Made by a program: the position numbers and the translations under genes. 64,000 nt of DNA from Escherichia coli (GTDB lineage: Bacteria; Pseudomonadota; Gammaproteobacteria; Enterobacterales; Enterobacteriaceae): NCBI RefSeq assembly GCF_013122565.1, contig NZ_CP053258.1; one strand, given 5' to 3'. Under the pieces are notes generated by a model, which worked only from the letters and a program-made list of their open reading frames with translations, did not search any database and was not told the origin of the DNA. Shown here piece after piece: positions 8,876-19,392 of this stretch (within the stretch, counting starts at the first letter, position 1; each line of letters starts with the position of its first letter).

Positions 8876-10228
8876 TTACTGATGAGATTGGGTAAGTTCA
8901 GCAATAGTGCTGGAAAATTGAGGTAGATGTTTTTTATGGGCAATGATCAGTTCACGCACTAATTTTTCAGCGTCGTTATCCGAGGTCATTAGCGGGTTAA
9001 GACACAGAGCCAGCAGCGTATCGTTAAAGTTACCACTTATTGCCGCCCGGGCTGCCGCAATCTCAAAACATTTGATTGAATGAATGAGCCCCAGTACATT
9101 TTCGTCAAAATGAGTGAGACGCGGGTGGGGGGTAACACCGTTATTCCCCAGAATGCAGGTCATTTCAACGGTCCAGTCTTCAGGGATATTTTTTACACTG
9201 CCCTTGTGTGGAATATTAACGTAGTGTTCTGTTTGCGTGTCATTATAAATTGCATTAATAACGGCACAGGCTGCATCTGAATAATACGCACCACCACGCA
9301 GATCCAGTTCTTCAGGTTTTGTATTTAGTTCTGGGTCCTTATACAGCTCAAATAATTTCTTCTCTAATGCCTGCACGACTTGTGCACGAACGCCATTTTT
9401 ATAAAATTCCCCCATCTCAATGGCGAGCATTTCTTTATGTTTAAAATAGTAACGTAAGTAAGCACAGGGCAGGAGATTAAGTGCCCGAATTAAATTAGGA
9501 TTGAAGGTTAAACTGTCAATATTTTTGACGGTACTTCCTTCAAGCAGACCTTCAACGACGCCATCGAGCAATTCAGCAAAACGTGATTGTCCATTGACCC
9601 ATACGTCTTTAAGAAAGACCATATGATTTAAGCCAAATATGTCTATTGAAAGATCATCGTCCGCGCCAAGTTTTAGGGCATTGCGAACGAAGCTCTTCAT
9701 CCCAACAGGGACATTACAGACACCGATAAACCGTTTAAATTGGGTATGGCGGTACACGGCTTCAGTGACCATCCCGGCAGGATTGGTGAAATTAATAATC
9801 CAGGCATCGGGGCAAAGTTCTTCTACATCTTTGATAATATGAAAGATCACGGGGATGGTACGCAATCCGTTGAATAAACCGCCTGCGCCATTGGTTTCTT
9901 GCCCCAGATATCCCTGACTTAGTGGCATCAACTCATCCATTTCCCGCGCTTTTAATTGCCCGACCCGAAACTGTGTGGTGACAAAGTGCGCGCCCTGTAA
10001 TGCTGTGCGGCGGTCCAGGGTTTTCACTATTTTTAACGGAATGCCTGCTTTGACTACCATTCGCTGACAAAGGTCGAAAATAATGTCCAGCTTTTCTTTG
10101 CCTTCTTCAATATCAACTAGCCATAATTCACTGACCGGTAATTCATCGTAGCGTTTTATGAATCCTTCAAGGAGTTCTGGCGTATAGCTACTGCCACCGC
10201 CAATAGTAACGATTTTTAAATTTTTCAT
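8876..10228 (-). CDS. Glycoside hydrolase family 4 6-phospho-beta-glucosidase, ChbF paralogue (450 aa)
   Basis: MKNLKIVTIGGGSSYTPELLEGFIKRYDELPVSELWLVD... GH4 NAD-binding N-terminus with high similarity to ChbF along its length. Confidence 0.8.
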   Translation of the reverse strand: MKNLKIVTIGGGSSYTPELLEGFIKRYDELPVSELWLVDIEEGKEKLDIIFDLCQRMVVKAGIPLKIVKTLDRRTALQGAHFVTTQFRVGQLKAREMDELMPLSQGYLGQETNGAGGLFNGLRTIPVIFHIIKDVEELCPDAWIINFTNPAGMVTEAVYRHTQFKRFIGVCNVPVGMKSFVRNALKLGADDDLSIDIFGLNHMVFLKDVWVNGQSRFAELLDGVVEGLLEGSTVKNIDSLTFNPNLIRALNLLPCAYLRYYFKHKEMLAIEMGEFYKNGVRAQVVQALEKKLFELYKDPELNTKPEELDLRGGAYYSDAACAVINAIYNDTQTEHYVNIPHKGSVKNIPEDWTVEMTCILGNNGVTPHPRLTHFDENVLGLIHSIKCFEIAAARAAISGNFNDTLLALCLNPLMTSDNDAEKLVRELIIAHKKHLPQFSSTIAELTQSHQ

Positions 10229-10305
10229 GTTACTTCCATACTCAATATTAAATTGACTTGTGATTCCATGTTTTTATCTAAACCTTGGCATGAAGACGCG
10301 TCCTA

Positions 10306-11667
10306 TTAAAACTTCAACGCATTTGCTATATCTTCTTCGCTTTCTTCTTTATTAATTTCGACTTGTGCTTTGTTTGAGATAATGACAAAGGGAAGATAAA
10401 CCATTGTGGCAACACCTAAGTTAAAGAGTGCCAGGAGTAATCCAGCAATGCTCCCATTTGAACTGAAGAATGCATTAAGTCCAGGGGGCATGGTCCAGGG
10501 GGCGATATTTGTTGATGGCGGAATAATACCCATGTTATAGGCGATTAAGGTAATCCCGGCGAGAATGGGTTGAATCATCACAAACGGAATTAACATAATG
10601 GGATTCATAATGATCGGCAAACCAAATAAAATAGGTTCGTTGATATTAAAGATACCAGAAGGTAACGCTAATTTAGCAACCTGACGATAATCCTCCCGGC
10701 GTGAGGCAATGAAAATAGCGAAAATGAGTCCCAGCGTTGCTCCTGTTCCACCGAGGAATACGTAAGCGTCAAGCATTGGCCCGGTCCAGAAATGGAAGGT
10801 TTTTCCTGCTTCCAGTGCCGCTTGTACCGAACCATATTGTGTATAAGTCGCAATATTTTCCAGACCCCAGGGACCCAGCGTGCTGCTTTGTAACGCAGTT
10901 AATACTAAACCGCCGTGGATACCAAAGAACCATAACAGGGAATTAAAGACAACGAATGTCCAGCCAACAATACTGCTCATTGACGTTAATGGCGTAGCCA
11001 GTGAGGTGATAATGACCTGATGGAAATTGGTGCCATATATCGACAATATGCCAGATAAACTCCCCATAATTAACAGGATAATAAACCCAGGCACCATTGC
11101 CGAGAATGAGCGTGATACTGCTGCCGGGACACTCGCGGGTAAACGAATCACCCAGTTGCGACGGATAATAAAAGCGAAAATTTCCGCTACAACTAATCCA
11201 ATGATCATACCAGACAGGATATTGGCTCCCCCCAGCCAGTTTGCGCCAATGACATTAGCAGTTTCTCCTGCTTTGAAGGGGGTGACGGTCATAAACGCTG
11301 CGACAGAGAGTAAGCCAACGGATAACGAATCAACTTTCCGTTCTTCGGCCAACCCCATCCCAATAAAAAAGGGGGTCATGAGTGACATAATGCCCAGCGT
11401 GCCATGATAAGCACTGTCACCGACGACGGTGAAGGCGCTTAAGGTTTTTATGGTCGATGGTTCCAGTCGGACGCCTAATGAATAAAAAAAGGAGCCTTCG
11501 CCAAAATCTAAAAAAACGCTATTAATGAGAACAAATAACGTACCGGCTAACGTTAATGGCATCATACGGATAAAACCGTTTTTTATTGCATTGACGTGAG
11601 GTTGTTTCCCTAATTTAACTGCAAAAGGAAGAATGAGTTTTTCAAGTAACGCCATCACTCCGGGCAT
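10306..11667 (-). CDS. PTS lactose/cellobiose-family EIIC permease, ChbC paralogue (453 aa)
   Basis: [35 protein letters not shown]... highly similar to ChbC; polytopic membrane protein. Confidence 0.8.
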
Positions 11668-11741
11668 AAAAATATCCTTATATACCGATTAATGTATCAC
11701 TTTGATTATTGTTGTAGATCAATCCTATTGATAGGGTAGGG

Positions 11742-12059
11742 TTACTTCTGTTGTTTTTTTATCATGGCAATGGCAGATTTTAATACGCCTAAACCATCAA
11801 TTTTCCCATATAACATTGAATCTATAACTTCCACTGGCTTTCCAGGTAATAAGCTTTGGATCTCTGATTGCATATAAGCAATTTGCGGTCCTAATAATAT
11901 AACATCAGCTTCCGGACCTTTCTCTGCAGCAACAGATTCGGAGAATGCTTCAATAATTACCGGCACATCATATTTTATTGCCTGCACTTTCATCTTAGAA
12001 ACTAGCAGAGATGTTGACATTCCCGCCGAGCAAAATAAATATATTCTTTTCTTTTCCAT
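11742..12059 (-). CDS. PTS lactose/cellobiose-family EIIB, ChbB paralogue (about 105 aa)
   Basis: ORF 11742-12122; likely start [23 protein letters not shown] with the phosphorylatable Cys in the CSAGMSTS motif. Confidence 0.78.
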
Positions 12060-12449
12060 AGGGACTCCGGATATATTAAGGTATAATATATTTGTCATGC
12101 CATAAATGGCATATAATGCCACTTATAATTAATAAAACACCGATTTTTATATTGATTTCCTGAATGTCGTCTTTAGGTATTAATCTCAGGAGTTTCAGGA
12201 ACCATTGAATAATCTGGTTTATAGAATTGAATGTCAAGTTAGTGAAATGGTGGGAGTGCGGTAATAAAAATAGTGCGGCTTTCGGTTGGTTTCTTTTTTA
12301 TCAGAACGAAAAGTACAGTTAAAATGATTTCTGGATAAATTGAAGTTTTTTCAATGAATTACATTTTTGTCTGCCCGTGGGAATGAAAAAAACAATAATC
12401 AAAAAATACTTTAGATATGTGAGCGTTATCACTTCCTTTTTGTTGGGAA

Positions 12450-12485
12450 AACGGGGAAACACAGTCTCCCCATTTTCCGTTCATG
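12450..12485 (-). terminator. Rho-independent terminator downstream of garD
   Basis: On the minus strand: GGGGAGACTGTGTTTCCCC hairpin followed by GTTTTCC, immediately after the garD stop. Confidence 0.5.
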
Positions 12486-12493
12486 CGAGGTCG

Positions 12494-14065
12494 TCAGGTC
12501 ACCGGTGCCGGGTTAAACACAGCCAGCTGGTTATGCAGTCCCCATTGATCCGAGAAGGTTTTCTTCTTCCCGCTGGCGACGTCGAGAATAAAGTGGAACA
12601 GCTTCCAGCCCACTTGTTCAATGGTCTCTTCGCCGGTAGCGATAGTACCCGCATTAATATCCATTAAATCAAACCAGCGGTTCGCCAGCTCGGTGCGGGT
12701 CGCCATTTTAATGACGGGTACCGCCATCAGGCCGTACGGCGTACCACGGCCGGTCGTAAACACTTGCACTGTGATACCCGAAGCCACCTGTTGCGTGCCA
12801 CAGACAAAATCGCTGGCTGGCGTCGCGGCGTAAATTAATCCGCGTTTAGTCGGACGTTGACCGGGCGACAGCACTTCAACAATTGCGCTTTTACCCGATT
12901 TAGCAATGGAGCCGAGCGCTTTCTCCACCACATTTGCCAGACCGCCTTTCTTGTTGCCCGGCGAAGGGTTGGCGCTGCGGTCGGTTTTTCCCATATTGAG
13001 ATAGTTATCGTACCACTCCATCTCCTCAAGCAGCCGTTTGCCGACCTCTTCGTTCACTGCGCGTGGTGTCAGCAGATGGATCGCGTCACGCACTTCCGTG
13101 ACTTCTGAGAACATCACCGTTGCGCCGCAGCGCACCAGTAGATCAGACGCATACCCAACCGCCGGGTTTGCCGTTACGCCAGAAAAGGCATCGCTGCCAC
13201 CGCACTGCATGCCGACAACCAGTTCTGAAGCCGGACAGGTTTCTCGCTGACGTTGATTCAGTTTTTGTAGATGGCGTTCGGCGACCTGCAAAATATCCTC
13301 GACCATGGACTGAAAACCGACATGCTTTTCATCCTGCAAACTGACAATGCTGGCGCTTTCTACTGGAATAGCTTGCACATCATCCGTTCCAGTCAGCAGG
13401 CGCTCAGGCTGCAACTTTTCACAACCCAGGCCAATCACCATTACTTCGCCGCCAAAGTTAGGGTTCAGCGAAATATTGTGAATGGTACGAATAGGCACAA
13501 CTGCCGCCGGTGCGTTAATCGCCACGCCACAACCGTACAAATGATTCAGCCCCACCACGCCATCGACGTTCGGGTATTTCGGTAGCAGATCGCGTTCAAT
13601 GATTTTTACTACATAGTCCACCACGCCTGCCACACAGTGGACGCTGGTGGTGATGCCGAGCAGGTTTTTGGTGCCCACGCTGCCATCGGCATTGCGATAG
13701 CCCTCAAAGGTGTATCCTTCCAGTGGCGGTAAGGGTTCCGGGACTTTGGTTGCCAGTGGCAGCGTGTGTAACGGCGGCGCTTCCGGTAGTACAACCATTG
13801 ATTCGTCGATCCAGCTTCCGCGTGGGATTGCACGCACGGCGTAACCAATCACTTCGCCATAACGAATAATTTCACCATTAGCCGGAATGTTGAGCAATGC
13901 GACTTTATGCCCCTGGGGAATATGTTCAATTAATTCCAGCCCATCCGGAAAACGCGTTCCTGCTTTCAGGCCATTATCATTAACAATAATTGCCACATTA
14001 TCTGTGTCGTGAACTTTTATATAAAACGCAGTTGGCGTTTCTTGTCTGATTTCGATGTTGGCCAT
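12494..14065 (-). CDS. garD: Galactarate dehydratase (523 aa)
   Basis: 523-aa [39 protein letters not shown]..., SAF domain plus altronate/galactarate dehydratase family; divergent from garP. Confidence 0.9.
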
Positions 14066-18754: not shown

Positions 18755-19131
<377 letters not shown>

Positions 19132-19138
19132 GATTTAC

Positions 19139-19171
19139 GTAAAAACCCGCTTCGGCGGGTTTTTACTTTTG
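19139..19171 (+). terminator. rnpB rho-independent terminator
   Basis: AAAAACCCGCTTCGGCGGGTTTTTACTTTT hairpin with a T-tract. Confidence 0.8.
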
Positions 19172-19175
19172 GAAG

Positions 19176-19392
19176 GGGCAGAAAGATGAATGACTGTCCA
19201 CGACGCTATACCCAAAAGAAAGCGGCTTATCGGTCAGTTTCACCTGATGTAAGTAAAAACCCGCTTCGGCGGGTTTTTGCTTTTGGAGGGGCAGAAAGAT
19301 GAATGACTGTCCACGACACTATACCCAAAAGAAAGCGGCTTATCGGTCAGTTTCACCTGATGTACGTAATAAACCGTTCCGGCGGGTTTCAG
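19176..19392 (+). repeat. Two tandem ~113-bp direct repeats duplicating the rnpB 3' end and terminator
   Basis: GGCAGAAAGATGAATGACTGTCCACGAC...GGTCAGTTTCACCTGATGTA.GTAA.AACCCG.TTCGGCGGGTTT occurs twice after the genuine rnpB 3' end. Confidence 0.8.

What the first reader, a model, noticed from the sequence alone, without database searches (positions are those of the whole stretch)
10229..12059. Orphan EIIB-EIIC pair: no EIIA and no ChbR-type regulator in the island
In the canonical operon chbA (EIIA) and chbR (AraC-type regulator) lie between chbC and chbF. Here the chbC-like and chbF-like genes are separated by only ~77 nt, and no ~105-aa EIIA ORF occurs anywhere in the island. The transporter must borrow an EIIA in trans, and regulation appears rewired to a DeoR-type repressor.
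Basis: seen in the sequence. Interest (0 to 1): 0.5.

Follow-up and report, generated by a model that had tools for sequence, protein, structure and literature searches.

The report
Chitobiose-type sugar importer missing its EIIA
A rare E. coli gene island carries a working-looking chitobiose-type sugar importer that lacks one of its three phosphate-relay proteins and its usual regulator, because four chitobiose genes were spliced into another sugar operon in place of that operon's own transporter; this is an ordinary kind of arrangement, though a tidy example of how bacteria swap transport modules.

Summary
On the minus strand, an EIIB gene (11742-12059) and an EIIC gene (10306-11667) are followed after exactly 77 nt by a GH4 6-phospho-beta-glucosidase gene. 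Six-frame HMM and tblastn searches find no EIIA and no ChbR in the island or anywhere in the 64-kb window.

The island is a mosaic. Relatives at the same agaR/garD site carry an ABC importer, a Gfo/Idh/MocA oxidoreductase, a ROK kinase and an AgaR-like DeoR repressor. Here a chbB-chbC-chbF-chbG block replaces the four ABC genes. The block's nearest relatives are complete chbBCARFG operons. It sits behind the same conserved promoter, which has a CRP-like site and AgaR-like boxes. The canonical chb promoter region and the conserved chbB-chbC intergenic motif (the ChiX-decoy region) are both absent.

The orphan genes are intact and under strong purifying selection (dN/dS 0.015-0.02), and the EIIB Cys10 loop is identical to ChbB. 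So an EIIA must act in trans. The likeliest donor is ChbA: chbA-chbR occurs in 99.7% of complete E. coli genomes, including an island-bearing strain.

Trans-served incomplete PTS loci are well known. This is a new variant of a known kind and of modest interest. The substrate, and the role of the widespread oxidoreductase with four invariant cysteines, remain open.

The parts
12418..12433 (-). CRP-like site, AGTGA-TAACGC-TCACA (9 of 10 matches to TGTGA-N6-TCACA, a consensus recalled from memory). It lies just downstream of the garD terminator hairpin (12446-12478).
   Evidence: Sequence; hairpin I1. The site is conserved in the ABC-type loci L003 and L006 (alignment A1). Function is inferred.
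12279..12313 (-). AgaR-like operator boxes: CTTTTCGTT (12313-12305) and GAAACCAACCGAAAG (12293-12279).
   Evidence: Conserved in L001, L003 and L006. The same box type, with 2-3 mismatches, clusters in the agaR-kbaZ intergenic region at 2699, 2784 and 2879. There were 15 matches in the window against 6.1 expected. Binding has not been tested.
12209..12237 (-). Predicted sigma-70 promoter of the operon: TTGACA, 17-nt spacer, GATTAT.
   Evidence: Best-scoring promoter-like site in 4600-12600, 10 of 12 matches. Both hexamers are conserved in the ABC-type loci. blastn homology links 12193-12312 to the region just upstream of the L003 SBP gene.
12060..12208 (-). 5' leader of about 140 nt and unknown origin. 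It contains a TGGCAT/ATGCCA palindrome cluster at 12102-12126.
   Evidence: No homology to the ABC-type loci beyond about 12193 or to chbB upstream regions. Palindrome I4. ATGCCATTnATGGCAT is conserved in L001.
11742..12059 (-). EIIB of the lactose/cellobiose PTS family, 105 aa, 79% identical to E. coli ChbB by tblastn (77% in the MAFFT alignment A3).
   Evidence: Cys10 loop conserved. dN/dS 0.019.
11668..11741 (-). EIIB-EIIC spacer, 74 nt. It lacks the conserved ATTTTCCCGTCAAAGAGT motif of canonical chbB-chbC spacers (the ChiX-decoy region).
   Evidence: alignment. The existence of the decoy comes from bioRxiv 10.1101/2021.05.11.443692. Equating the motif with the decoy rests on my own knowledge.
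10306..11667 (-). EIIC, 453 aa, 73% identical to E. coli ChbC. It forms a long-branch sister to a second chb clade (Salmonella, Superficieibacter).
   Evidence: dN/dS 0.015.
10229..10305 (-). 77-nt spacer occupying the position where chbA and chbR lie in complete operons. No remnant is detectable.
8876..10228 (-). GH4 6-phospho-beta-glucosidase, 450 aa, 75% identical to ChbF.
   Evidence: PF02056/PF11975. dN/dS 0.053.
8105..8863 (-). YdjC-family deacetylase, 252 aa, 58% identical to ChbG.
   Evidence: NF002559 at 351.6 bits against a cutoff of 227.
8059..8104 (-). Downstream junction of the swapped block. Homology to the ABC-type locus L003 ends at 8058, a few bases inside the 5' end of the oxidoreductase gene, whose start codon is at 8066-8064.
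6810..8066 (-). Gfo/Idh/MocA oxidoreductase, 418 aa from the conserved Met (the ORF could extend to 8093). It has four invariant cysteines.
5880..6791 (-). ROK-family sugar kinase, NagK-like, 303 aa.
   Evidence: NF009835 at 310 bits, below its cutoff of 380.
5065..5835 (+). DeoR-family repressor, an AgaR paralogue, 256 aa. It converges on the operon's 3' end.
   Evidence: NF040755 at 363 bits against a cutoff of 260. 43% identical to the neighbouring AgaR and 65% to the Serratia cassette regulator.
4820..5064 (+). Region upstream of the regulator gene, rich in TTTC boxes. Probably an autoregulation site.
   Evidence: Sequence. Inferred.

Best explanation
The island (about 4.8-12.45 kb, between prlF and garD) is a mosaic catabolic operon.

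Ancestral state (inferred from relatives): an ABC importer, a Gfo/Idh/MocA oxidoreductase and a ROK kinase formed one operon, controlled by an adjacent AgaR-like DeoR repressor next to the aga cluster.

Event (inferred): a four-gene block, chbB-chbC-chbF-chbG, replaced the four ABC genes. The block came from a complete chbBCARFG operon but arrived without chbA and chbR. It landed behind the resident promoter and operators.

Proposed working (inferred):
- The AgaR-like repressor, and probably CRP, control transcription.
- EIIC imports a chitobiose-like beta-linked N-acetylhexosamine disaccharide.
- EIIB phosphorylates it using phosphate received from a lactose/cellobiose-family EIIA encoded elsewhere. 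The most likely donor is ChbA of the resident chbBCARFG operon.
- The YdjC deacetylase and the GH4 enzyme split the phospho-disaccharide.
- The ROK kinase, and in some way the oxidoreductase, process the released free sugar.

Shown here: the anatomy, the absence of EIIA and ChbR, the mosaic junctions, promoter conservation, purifying selection, and availability of chbA in E. coli.

Inferred: the donor EIIA, the repressor-operator link, the substrate, and the direction of the swap.
For: Absence of EIIA and ChbR.

Mosaic origin:
- The window aligns with the ABC-type locus L003 from agaR through the first bases of the Gfo gene (2500-8058, 84.5% identity), and again at the promoter (12193-12312). 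It does not align in between.
- The ABC-Gfo-ROK-DeoR cassette is seen at the same site in L003, L005 and L006, and elsewhere in the Serratia genome (L004).
- The nearest relatives of the island EIIC outside the island (75-77% identical) belong to complete chbB-C-A-R-F-G operons.
- No EIIA-containing intermediate appears among 5.8 billion clustered proteins.

Regulation:
- The -35/-10 hexamers, the CRP-like site and the AgaR-like boxes are conserved with ABC-type loci.
- The same box type recurs at the aga promoters.
- The HTH region of the regulator is close to that of AgaR.
- No homology to the canonical chb promoter was found.
- The conserved chbB-chbC intergenic motif is absent.

Functionality:
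- All seven genes are intact.
- dN/dS is 0.015 for EIIC and 0.019 for EIIB.
- The EIIB Cys10 loop matches ChbB.

Donor availability: chbA-chbR occurs in 5408 of 5426 genomes, and the operon is intact in island-bearing strain R32_14_1F.

Precedent: in L. lactis, PtcBA serve three different EIICs (PMC6085457). Incomplete PTS loci are common in lactobacilli (PMC2848229).
Against: - The window does not contain the chb locus, so the presence of chbA in this particular genome is a 99.7% prior and not an observation.
- chbA lies in an operon that NagC and ChbR repress unless chitobiose is present (PMC3551598). ChbA supply may therefore be limiting unless the island's substrate also induces chb.
- EIIC sits on a long branch: 73.6% identity to E. 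coli ChbC, whereas Aeromonas ChbC is 80.7% identical. The substrate may therefore differ from chitobiose.
- The CRP-like site lies about 220 nt upstream of the predicted start, too far for classical activation from that promoter.
- No binding, transport or expression data exist.
- The oxidoreductase has no assigned role in the proposed pathway.
Confidence: 0.65

Rival explanations
1. The EIIA donor is not ChbA. It is the EIIA of another accessory lactose/cellobiose-family PTS elsewhere in this strain's genome.
For: E. coli accessory genomes can carry extra PTS loci (own knowledge). Salmonella carries a second complete chb operon. Only 64 kb of this genome can be seen.
Against: None occurs in the window. 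ChbA is near-universal in E. coli, and the island EIIB is 79% identical to ChbB by tblastn with an unchanged active-site loop.
Confidence: 0.12
2. The system works without any EIIA. Either EIIC acts as a facilitator and the ROK kinase phosphorylates the sugar, as beta-glucoside kinase BglK does, or HPr phosphorylates EIIB directly.
For: A ROK kinase is encoded in the operon. In the ABC-type ancestor the sugar entered unphosphorylated.
Against: EIIB would be dispensable under this model, yet it is under strong constraint (dN/dS 0.019) and keeps Cys10. The kinase scores 310 bits on NagK but only 64 bits on BglK, whose cutoff is 550. I know of no precedent for HPr phosphorylating a lactose/cellobiose-family EIIB directly.
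Confidence: 0.08
3. The orphan EIIB/EIIC pair is a non-functional relic on its way to becoming pseudogenes.
For: EIIA and the cognate activator are missing. The island is rare, present in 3 of 5426 complete genomes.
Against: There are no frameshifts or stop codons. dN/dS of 0.015-0.02 over dS of 0.2-0.65 between two alleles matches the housekeeping gene garD. The same architecture is kept in E. coli and in several named Escherichia sp. lineages.
Confidence: 0.05
4. A resident complete chb-like operon lost chbA-chbR by an internal deletion in situ and later recruited a nearby DeoR gene. This is the scenario the first reader implied, and it involves no module swap.
For: The nearest relatives of the block are complete operons.
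Against: The promoter, the Gfo and ROK genes and the regulator are collinear and homologous with ABC-type cassettes at the same chromosomal site. Homology breaks lie exactly at the ends of the chb block. No chb promoter remnant is present.
Confidence: 0.05

Closest known systems
E. coli chbBCARFG (N,N'-diacetylchitobiose) operon
   Same: The EIIB, EIIC, GH4 hydrolase and YdjC deacetylase are homologous at 79, 73, 75 and 58% identity and lie in the same order. EIIB, EIIC and the deacetylase all score above NCBIfam equivalog cutoffs.
   Different: chbA and chbR are missing. No homology to the chb promoter was found. The conserved chbB-chbC intergenic motif is absent. Gfo, ROK and a DeoR regulator are added. 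The chromosomal site differs. EIIC is on a long branch.
Lactococcus lactis PtcBA shared among the EIICs PtcC, CelB and Llmg_0963 (PMC6085457)
   Same: A lactose/cellobiose-family PTS in which soluble phosphocarriers encoded at one locus serve permeases encoded at other loci.
   Different: In L. lactis both EIIA and EIIB are shared and the orphan is EIIC alone. Here EIIB travels with EIIC and only EIIA is missing. The L. lactis case has genetic proof; this one has none.
E. coli glucose-family EIIBC permeases that use EIIA-Glc (Crr), such as TreB, AscF and MalX (own knowledge)
   Same: The operon lacks an EIIA, and the phosphoryl donor is encoded elsewhere.
   Different: A different PTS family is involved. 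Crr is constitutively expressed, whereas ChbA sits in a tightly repressed operon.
ABC-Gfo/Idh/MocA-ROK cassette with an AgaR-like regulator (Escherichia-related L003, L005/L006, Serratia L004)
   Same: The oxidoreductase, kinase, regulator and promoter region are shared. In L003, L005 and L006 the cassette is also at the same agaR-side chromosomal position.
   Different: Uptake is by an ATP-driven ABC system, and no GH4 or deacetylase is present. Serratia adds GH123, AgaS and a tagatose-bisphosphate aldolase.
AgaR-controlled aga (N-acetylgalactosamine) regulon of E. coli
   Same: The regulator is a paralogue (43% identical, similar HTH). The operator boxes look alike. The aga cluster is the immediate neighbour.
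   Different: The regulator protein, PTS family and enzymes all differ. Cross-regulation is possible but untested.

Membership tests
PTS lactose/cellobiose family (TC 4.A.3) Enzyme II | EIIC permease of the PF02378 / ChbC type | tested here: met
   NF007634 at 806.7 bits against a cutoff of 760; TIGR00410 at 500 bits; PF02378 on the 99% identical homologue.
PTS lactose/cellobiose family (TC 4.A.3) Enzyme II | EIIB (PF02302) with an active-site cysteine loop | tested here: met
   NF007796 at 189.7 bits against a cutoff of 157. Residues 1-23, including Cys10, match ChbB apart from variable residue 5.
PTS lactose/cellobiose family (TC 4.A.3) Enzyme II | A cognate EIIA (PF02255) encoded with the permease | tested here: not met
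   No hit in six frames of the island or the window. The positive control worked.
PTS lactose/cellobiose family (TC 4.A.3) Enzyme II | PEP-dependent phosphorylation of the sugar during uptake | not testable with these tools
   Requires transport and phosphorylation assays.
Canonical chbBCARFG operon | Gene set and order B-C-A-R-F-G | tested here: not met
   B-C-F-G only. A and R are absent, and the C-F spacer is 77 nt.
Canonical chbBCARFG operon | Promoter controlled by NagC, ChbR and CAP | tested here: not met
   The upstream region has no homology to the E. coli or Salmonella chbB upstream regions. Those two share the segment CGCGAATTATTTGCCCGAAATGTGAAG. The regulation itself is taken from PMC3551598.
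Canonical chbBCARFG operon | ChiX sRNA decoy in the chbB-chbC spacer | tested here: not met
   The conserved motif ATTTTCCCGTCAAAGAGT is absent from both island alleles. Equating the motif with the decoy is my own knowledge.
Canonical chbBCARFG operon | GH4 phospho-beta-glucosidase plus YdjC deacetylase | tested here: met
   75% and 58% identity. NF002559 at 351.6 bits against a cutoff of 227.
Incomplete PTS locus served by a trans-encoded EIIA | The locus lacks EIIA, but the permease genes are intact and constrained | tested here: met
Incomplete PTS locus served by a trans-encoded EIIA | A compatible EIIA is encoded elsewhere in the same genome | tested here: inconclusive
   Met for island-bearing strain R32_14_1F and for 99.7% of E. 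coli genomes. The window's own genome cannot be inspected beyond 64 kb.
Incomplete PTS locus served by a trans-encoded EIIA | Genetic or biochemical dependence on that EIIA | not testable with these tools
   Needs a chbA deletion or an in vitro phosphotransfer assay.
DeoR/AgaR-type repressor-controlled sugar operon | DeoR-family regulator (HTH_DeoR + DeoRC) adjacent to the operon | tested here: met
   NF040755 at 363 bits against a cutoff of 260; PF08220 and PF00455 on homologues.
DeoR/AgaR-type repressor-controlled sugar operon | Cognate operator repeats at the promoter | tested here: inconclusive
   AgaR-like boxes are conserved across loci and resemble those at the aga promoters. Binding has not been tested.
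ABC-Gfo-ROK-AgaR-like cassette | Oxidoreductase, kinase and regulator in conserved order, with a shared promoter | tested here: met
ABC-Gfo-ROK-AgaR-like cassette | SBP-dependent ABC importer as the uptake system | tested here: not met
   Replaced by the chbB-C-F-G block.

The most novel reading that the evidence does not exclude
The island encodes a pathway for a so far unrecognised amino-disaccharide. One candidate is a GlcNAc-beta-linked GalNAc unit from mucin or other host or environmental glycans. Uptake would depend on ChbA borrowed from the chitobiose regulon, so two separately regulated regulons (AgaR-like and NagC/ChbR) would form a natural AND-gate. The deacetylase product may feed forward to induce chb. 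The widespread Gfo/Idh/MocA protein with four invariant cysteines could be a new NAD-dependent, metal-containing sugar-converting or glycoside-cleaving enzyme.
Probability: 0.15. Interest if true: 0.6.

Novelty: new variant of a known kind. Interest (0 to 1): 0.35.

Why it matters
The locus is a clean natural example of an uptake module swap. An ATP-driven ABC importer was exchanged for a PTS permease plus the two enzymes needed to open a phospho-disaccharide. The promoter, the repressor and the downstream enzymes were kept.

The locus also creates a testable dependency between two operons, because the island needs an EIIA encoded in a separately repressed operon. That dependency could limit where such an island can spread or function.

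Practically, automatic annotation names these genes as the N,N'-diacetylchitobiose transporter and chitin disaccharide deacetylase. The long EIIC branch, the different regulator and the extra enzymes suggest a different substrate.

None of this overturns current understanding of the PTS.

Tried and rejected
- The weak ChbA tblastn hit at 60245-60394 (E 0.016) was followed up. It is an HTH_3 protein, not an EIIA.
- Aligning the 77-nt spacer with the chbC-chbA and chbR-chbF spacers of E. coli and Salmonella gave no convincing homology, so the deletion end-points cannot be mapped.
- The origin of the 140-nt leader was sought in chbB upstream regions. Only 7-9-nt chance matches appeared.
- An Rfam scan of the island gave only a sub-threshold fluoride-riboswitch match inside the ROK gene (19 bits against a gathering score of 34). 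This was rejected as chance.
- Literature searches found no description of this island.
- The ChbA-ChbB complex paper and the Verma & Mahadevan paper were not held in the library.
Full report
**1. What is at the coordinates**

The window is E. coli chromosome. garD (12494-14065, minus strand) is up to 99% identical to E. coli garD. To the left lie agaR, kbaZ, agaV and agaW. The exact island proteins are GenBank QJU26862 to QJU26868, from a 4.82-Mb E. coli contig.

Between prlF (4241-4576) and garD sits a block of about 7.6 kb. On the minus strand it encodes:
- EIIB, 11742-12059
- EIIC, 10306-11667
- a GH4 6-phospho-beta-glucosidase, 8876-10228
- a YdjC/ChbG-type deacetylase, 8105-8863
- a Gfo/Idh/MocA oxidoreductase, 6810-8066
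- a ROK kinase, 5880-6791

On the plus strand it encodes a 256-aa DeoR-family regulator, 5065-5835.

Against authentic E. coli proteins the first four are 79, 73, 75 and 58% identical to ChbB, ChbC, ChbF and ChbG.

**2. Is EIIA really absent?**

The canonical order chbB-chbC-chbA-chbR-celF-chbG was read from two annotated genomes. Three independent searches then failed to find chbA or chbR.
- tblastn with real ChbA and ChbR over the whole window gave nothing in the island.
- hmmscan of all six reading frames of 4600-12600 against NCBIfam found only the DeoR regulator and the garD tail. ChbA as a control hit three EIIA models.
- HMMs built from two ChbA and two ChbR sequences, run with filters off against all 1511 six-frame fragments of the 64-kb window, gave a best E of 0.08.

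The single weak hit (60038-60454) is an HTH_3 protein. Gene spacing leaves no room for a 100-aa gene inside the operon, and the 77-nt spacer holds no recognisable remnant.

**3. Where the arrangement came from**

The oxidoreductase turned out to be the informative marker.
- Its closest relatives outside this island type are 79-84% identical (L003, L005, L006). They lie at the same agaR-side position, and L003 even has prlF-yhaV.
- There the oxidoreductase is preceded by a four-gene ABC importer (binding protein, two permeases, MalK-like ATPase). The ROK kinase and the same 256-aa DeoR regulator follow it.
- Serratia has the same cassette, with GH123 upstream and AgaS plus a tagatose-bisphosphate aldolase downstream.

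blastn of the window against L003 shows continuous homology from agaR to position 8058, a few bases inside the 5' end of the oxidoreductase gene. There is no homology across the chb-like genes. A second homologous patch at 12193-12312 matches the DNA immediately upstream of the ABC binding-protein gene.

The nearest relatives of the island EIIC outside the island are only 75-77% identical. They belong to complete chbB-C-A-R-F-G operons, for example a second chb operon between frd and blc in Salmonella. In a neighbour-joining tree the island EIIC is a long-branch sister of that clade. It is more distant from E. coli ChbC (73.6%) than Aeromonas ChbC is (80.7%).

The simplest reading is that a chbB-C-F-G block, derived from a complete operon but lacking chbA and chbR, replaced the ABC genes of a resident operon. 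The ABC form is widespread. The PTS form is confined to a few E. coli and named Escherichia sp. isolates, including 3 of 5426 complete genomes. The PTS form is therefore the derived one.

**4. Regulation**

Several elements are conserved with the ABC-type loci:
- a strong promoter-like site, TTGACA-17-GATTAT (12237-12209), the best in the island
- boxes CTTTTCGTT and GAAACCAACCGAAAG (12313-12279)
- a CRP-like palindrome, AGTGATAACGCTCACA (12433-12418)

Near-copies of the GAAAC...CGAAAG box cluster in the agaR-kbaZ intergenic region, which I recall as the location of the AgaR operators. The stretch upstream of the island regulator is also full of TTTC boxes.

The regulator scores above the AgaR model cutoff. 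It is 43% identical to the neighbouring AgaR, with a very similar helix-turn-helix region, and 65% identical to the Serratia cassette regulator.

In contrast, the leader and promoter share nothing with chbB upstream regions, which conserve a long segment between E. coli and Salmonella. The chbB-chbC spacer has lost the conserved ATTTTCCCGTCAAAGAGT motif. That spacer is reported to encode the ChiX decoy.

Repressor binding itself is inferred, not shown.

**5. Does the orphan transporter work, and who feeds it?**

All genes are intact. Comparison with the diverged allele in E. coli R32_14_1F (92.4% identity overall) gives these values:

| Gene | dN/dS |
|---|---|
| EIIC | 0.015 |
| EIIB | 0.019 |
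| garD | 0.018 |
| GH4 | 0.05 |
| ROK kinase | 0.08 |
| DeoR regulator | 0.09 |
| Gfo/Idh/MocA | 0.10 |
| YdjC/ChbG-type deacetylase | 0.16 |

EIIB residues 1-23, including Cys10 and its loop, match ChbB apart from the variable residue 5. An EIIB under such constraint implies that phosphotransfer still occurs, and that requires an EIIA.

chbA-chbR is present in 5408 of 5426 complete E. coli genomes. Island-bearing R32_14_1F has an intact chbBCARFG operon whose ChbA carries the same RefSeq protein accession as the one used as query. ChbA is therefore the most likely donor.

This is an inference. Another accessory EIIA elsewhere in the genome cannot be excluded from 64 kb.

There is precedent. 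L. lactis PtcBA serve three EIICs (PMC6085457). Incomplete PTS loci are numerous in lactobacilli (PMC2848229).

One complication is that chbA sits in an operon repressed by NagC and ChbR unless chitobiose is present (PMC3551598). The ChbG reaction yields monoacetylchitobiose-6-P, which is both the ChbR inducer and the ChbF substrate (PMC9402603). The island's own deacetylase could therefore co-induce chb, if its product is similar. That idea is speculative but testable.

**6. Likely pathway**

By analogy with chb:
- The permease takes up and 6-phosphorylates a beta-linked N-acetylhexosamine disaccharide.
- The deacetylase and the GH4 enzyme cleave it.
- The NagK-like ROK kinase (310 bits, below the 380-bit NagK cutoff) phosphorylates the free sugar that is released.

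Three things hint at a GalNAc-related moiety: the AgaR-type regulator, the position next to the aga cluster, and the AgaS, aldolase and GH123 genes in the Serratia version. This remains a hypothesis.

The oxidoreductase remains unexplained. It is about 60% identical across several phyla. It has invariant Cys229, Cys232, Cys238 and Cys282. It models confidently as a Gfo/Idh/MocA fold (pLDDT 88). It matches dehydrogenases and NAD-dependent glycosidases equally well. In a Vibrio it sits beside an ABC importer and an APH-type kinase.

**7. Comparison with the known, and verdict**

The locus works like a chb-type PTS catabolic operon. As an operon it fails three defining chb features: chbA/chbR, the NagC/ChbR promoter and the ChiX-decoy motif. 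It should not be filed as a chb operon.

It is best described as a trans-dependent, incomplete lactose/cellobiose-family PTS embedded in an AgaR-paralogue operon. That makes it a new variant of a known kind. No paper describing it was found.

Interest is modest. A specialist would not be surprised by a borrowed EIIA. The clean transporter swap, the cross-operon dependency and the uncharacterised oxidoreductase with four invariant cysteines are all worth a bench test.

Noticed in passing
window 4119-4241 (minus strand): The yhaV toxin gene starts at 4241, overlapping the prlF stop codon. It has a premature TAG at codon 41 (4121-4119). The remaining 106 codons are 95% identical to an intact 154-aa YhaV. 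The prlF antitoxin gene (4241-4576) is intact. The three complete E. coli genomes that carry the island lack prlF-yhaV altogether.
   Followed up: partly
window 4569-12513 versus L001: Identity between the two island alleles is patchy. Blocks at 99% (5018-5467, 6368-6817, 8914-9813, 11314-11613) alternate with blocks at 80-88% (5768-6217, 6818-8463, 11614-12513). dS ranges from 0.1 to 0.65 between genes. This points to recombination among diverged island alleles.
   Followed up: partly
window 6810-8066 (minus strand): The Gfo/Idh/MocA protein belongs to a family about 60% identical across Proteobacteria, Anaerolineae, Lentisphaerae and others. It has four invariant cysteines (C-x2-C-x5-C plus Cys282), which suggests a metal site. 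It usually sits beside an ABC importer and a sugar kinase. Neither structure prediction nor fold search assigned a function.
   Followed up: partly
window 11668-11741; L002 4396-4479: The canonical chbB-chbC spacer motif ATTTTCCCGTCAAAGAGT, in the region reported to act as the ChiX sRNA decoy, is conserved between the E. coli operon and the second Salmonella chb operon. It is missing from both island alleles, so island transcripts should not titrate ChiX.
   Followed up: partly
window 12102-12126: A cluster of TGGCAT/ATGCCA palindromes lies in the 5' leader about 40-65 nt upstream of the EIIB start codon. Part of it, ATGCCATTnATGGCAT, is conserved in the diverged allele. It may be an operator or an RNA hairpin of unknown function.
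   Followed up: no
window 19109-19389: A tandem array of 2.5 copies of a 113-nt unit (94% matches), each unit containing a terminator-like hairpin. It lies in the low-GC stretch after garK. It resembles the 113-bp repeats I recall downstream of E. coli rnpB; this was not checked.
   Followed up: no
L009/L010 7600-12770 (Salmonella enterica): Some Salmonella genomes carry a second complete chbB-C-A-R-F-G operon between frdD and blc. It is distinct from the canonical chb operon, and it is the closest complete relative of the island's PTS block.
   Followed up: partly
window 60038-60454 (plus strand): A 138-aa ORF with an HTH_3 (XRE-type) domain and no NCBIfam match. It gave the only weak, spurious ChbA-like hit in the window.
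   Followed up: yes
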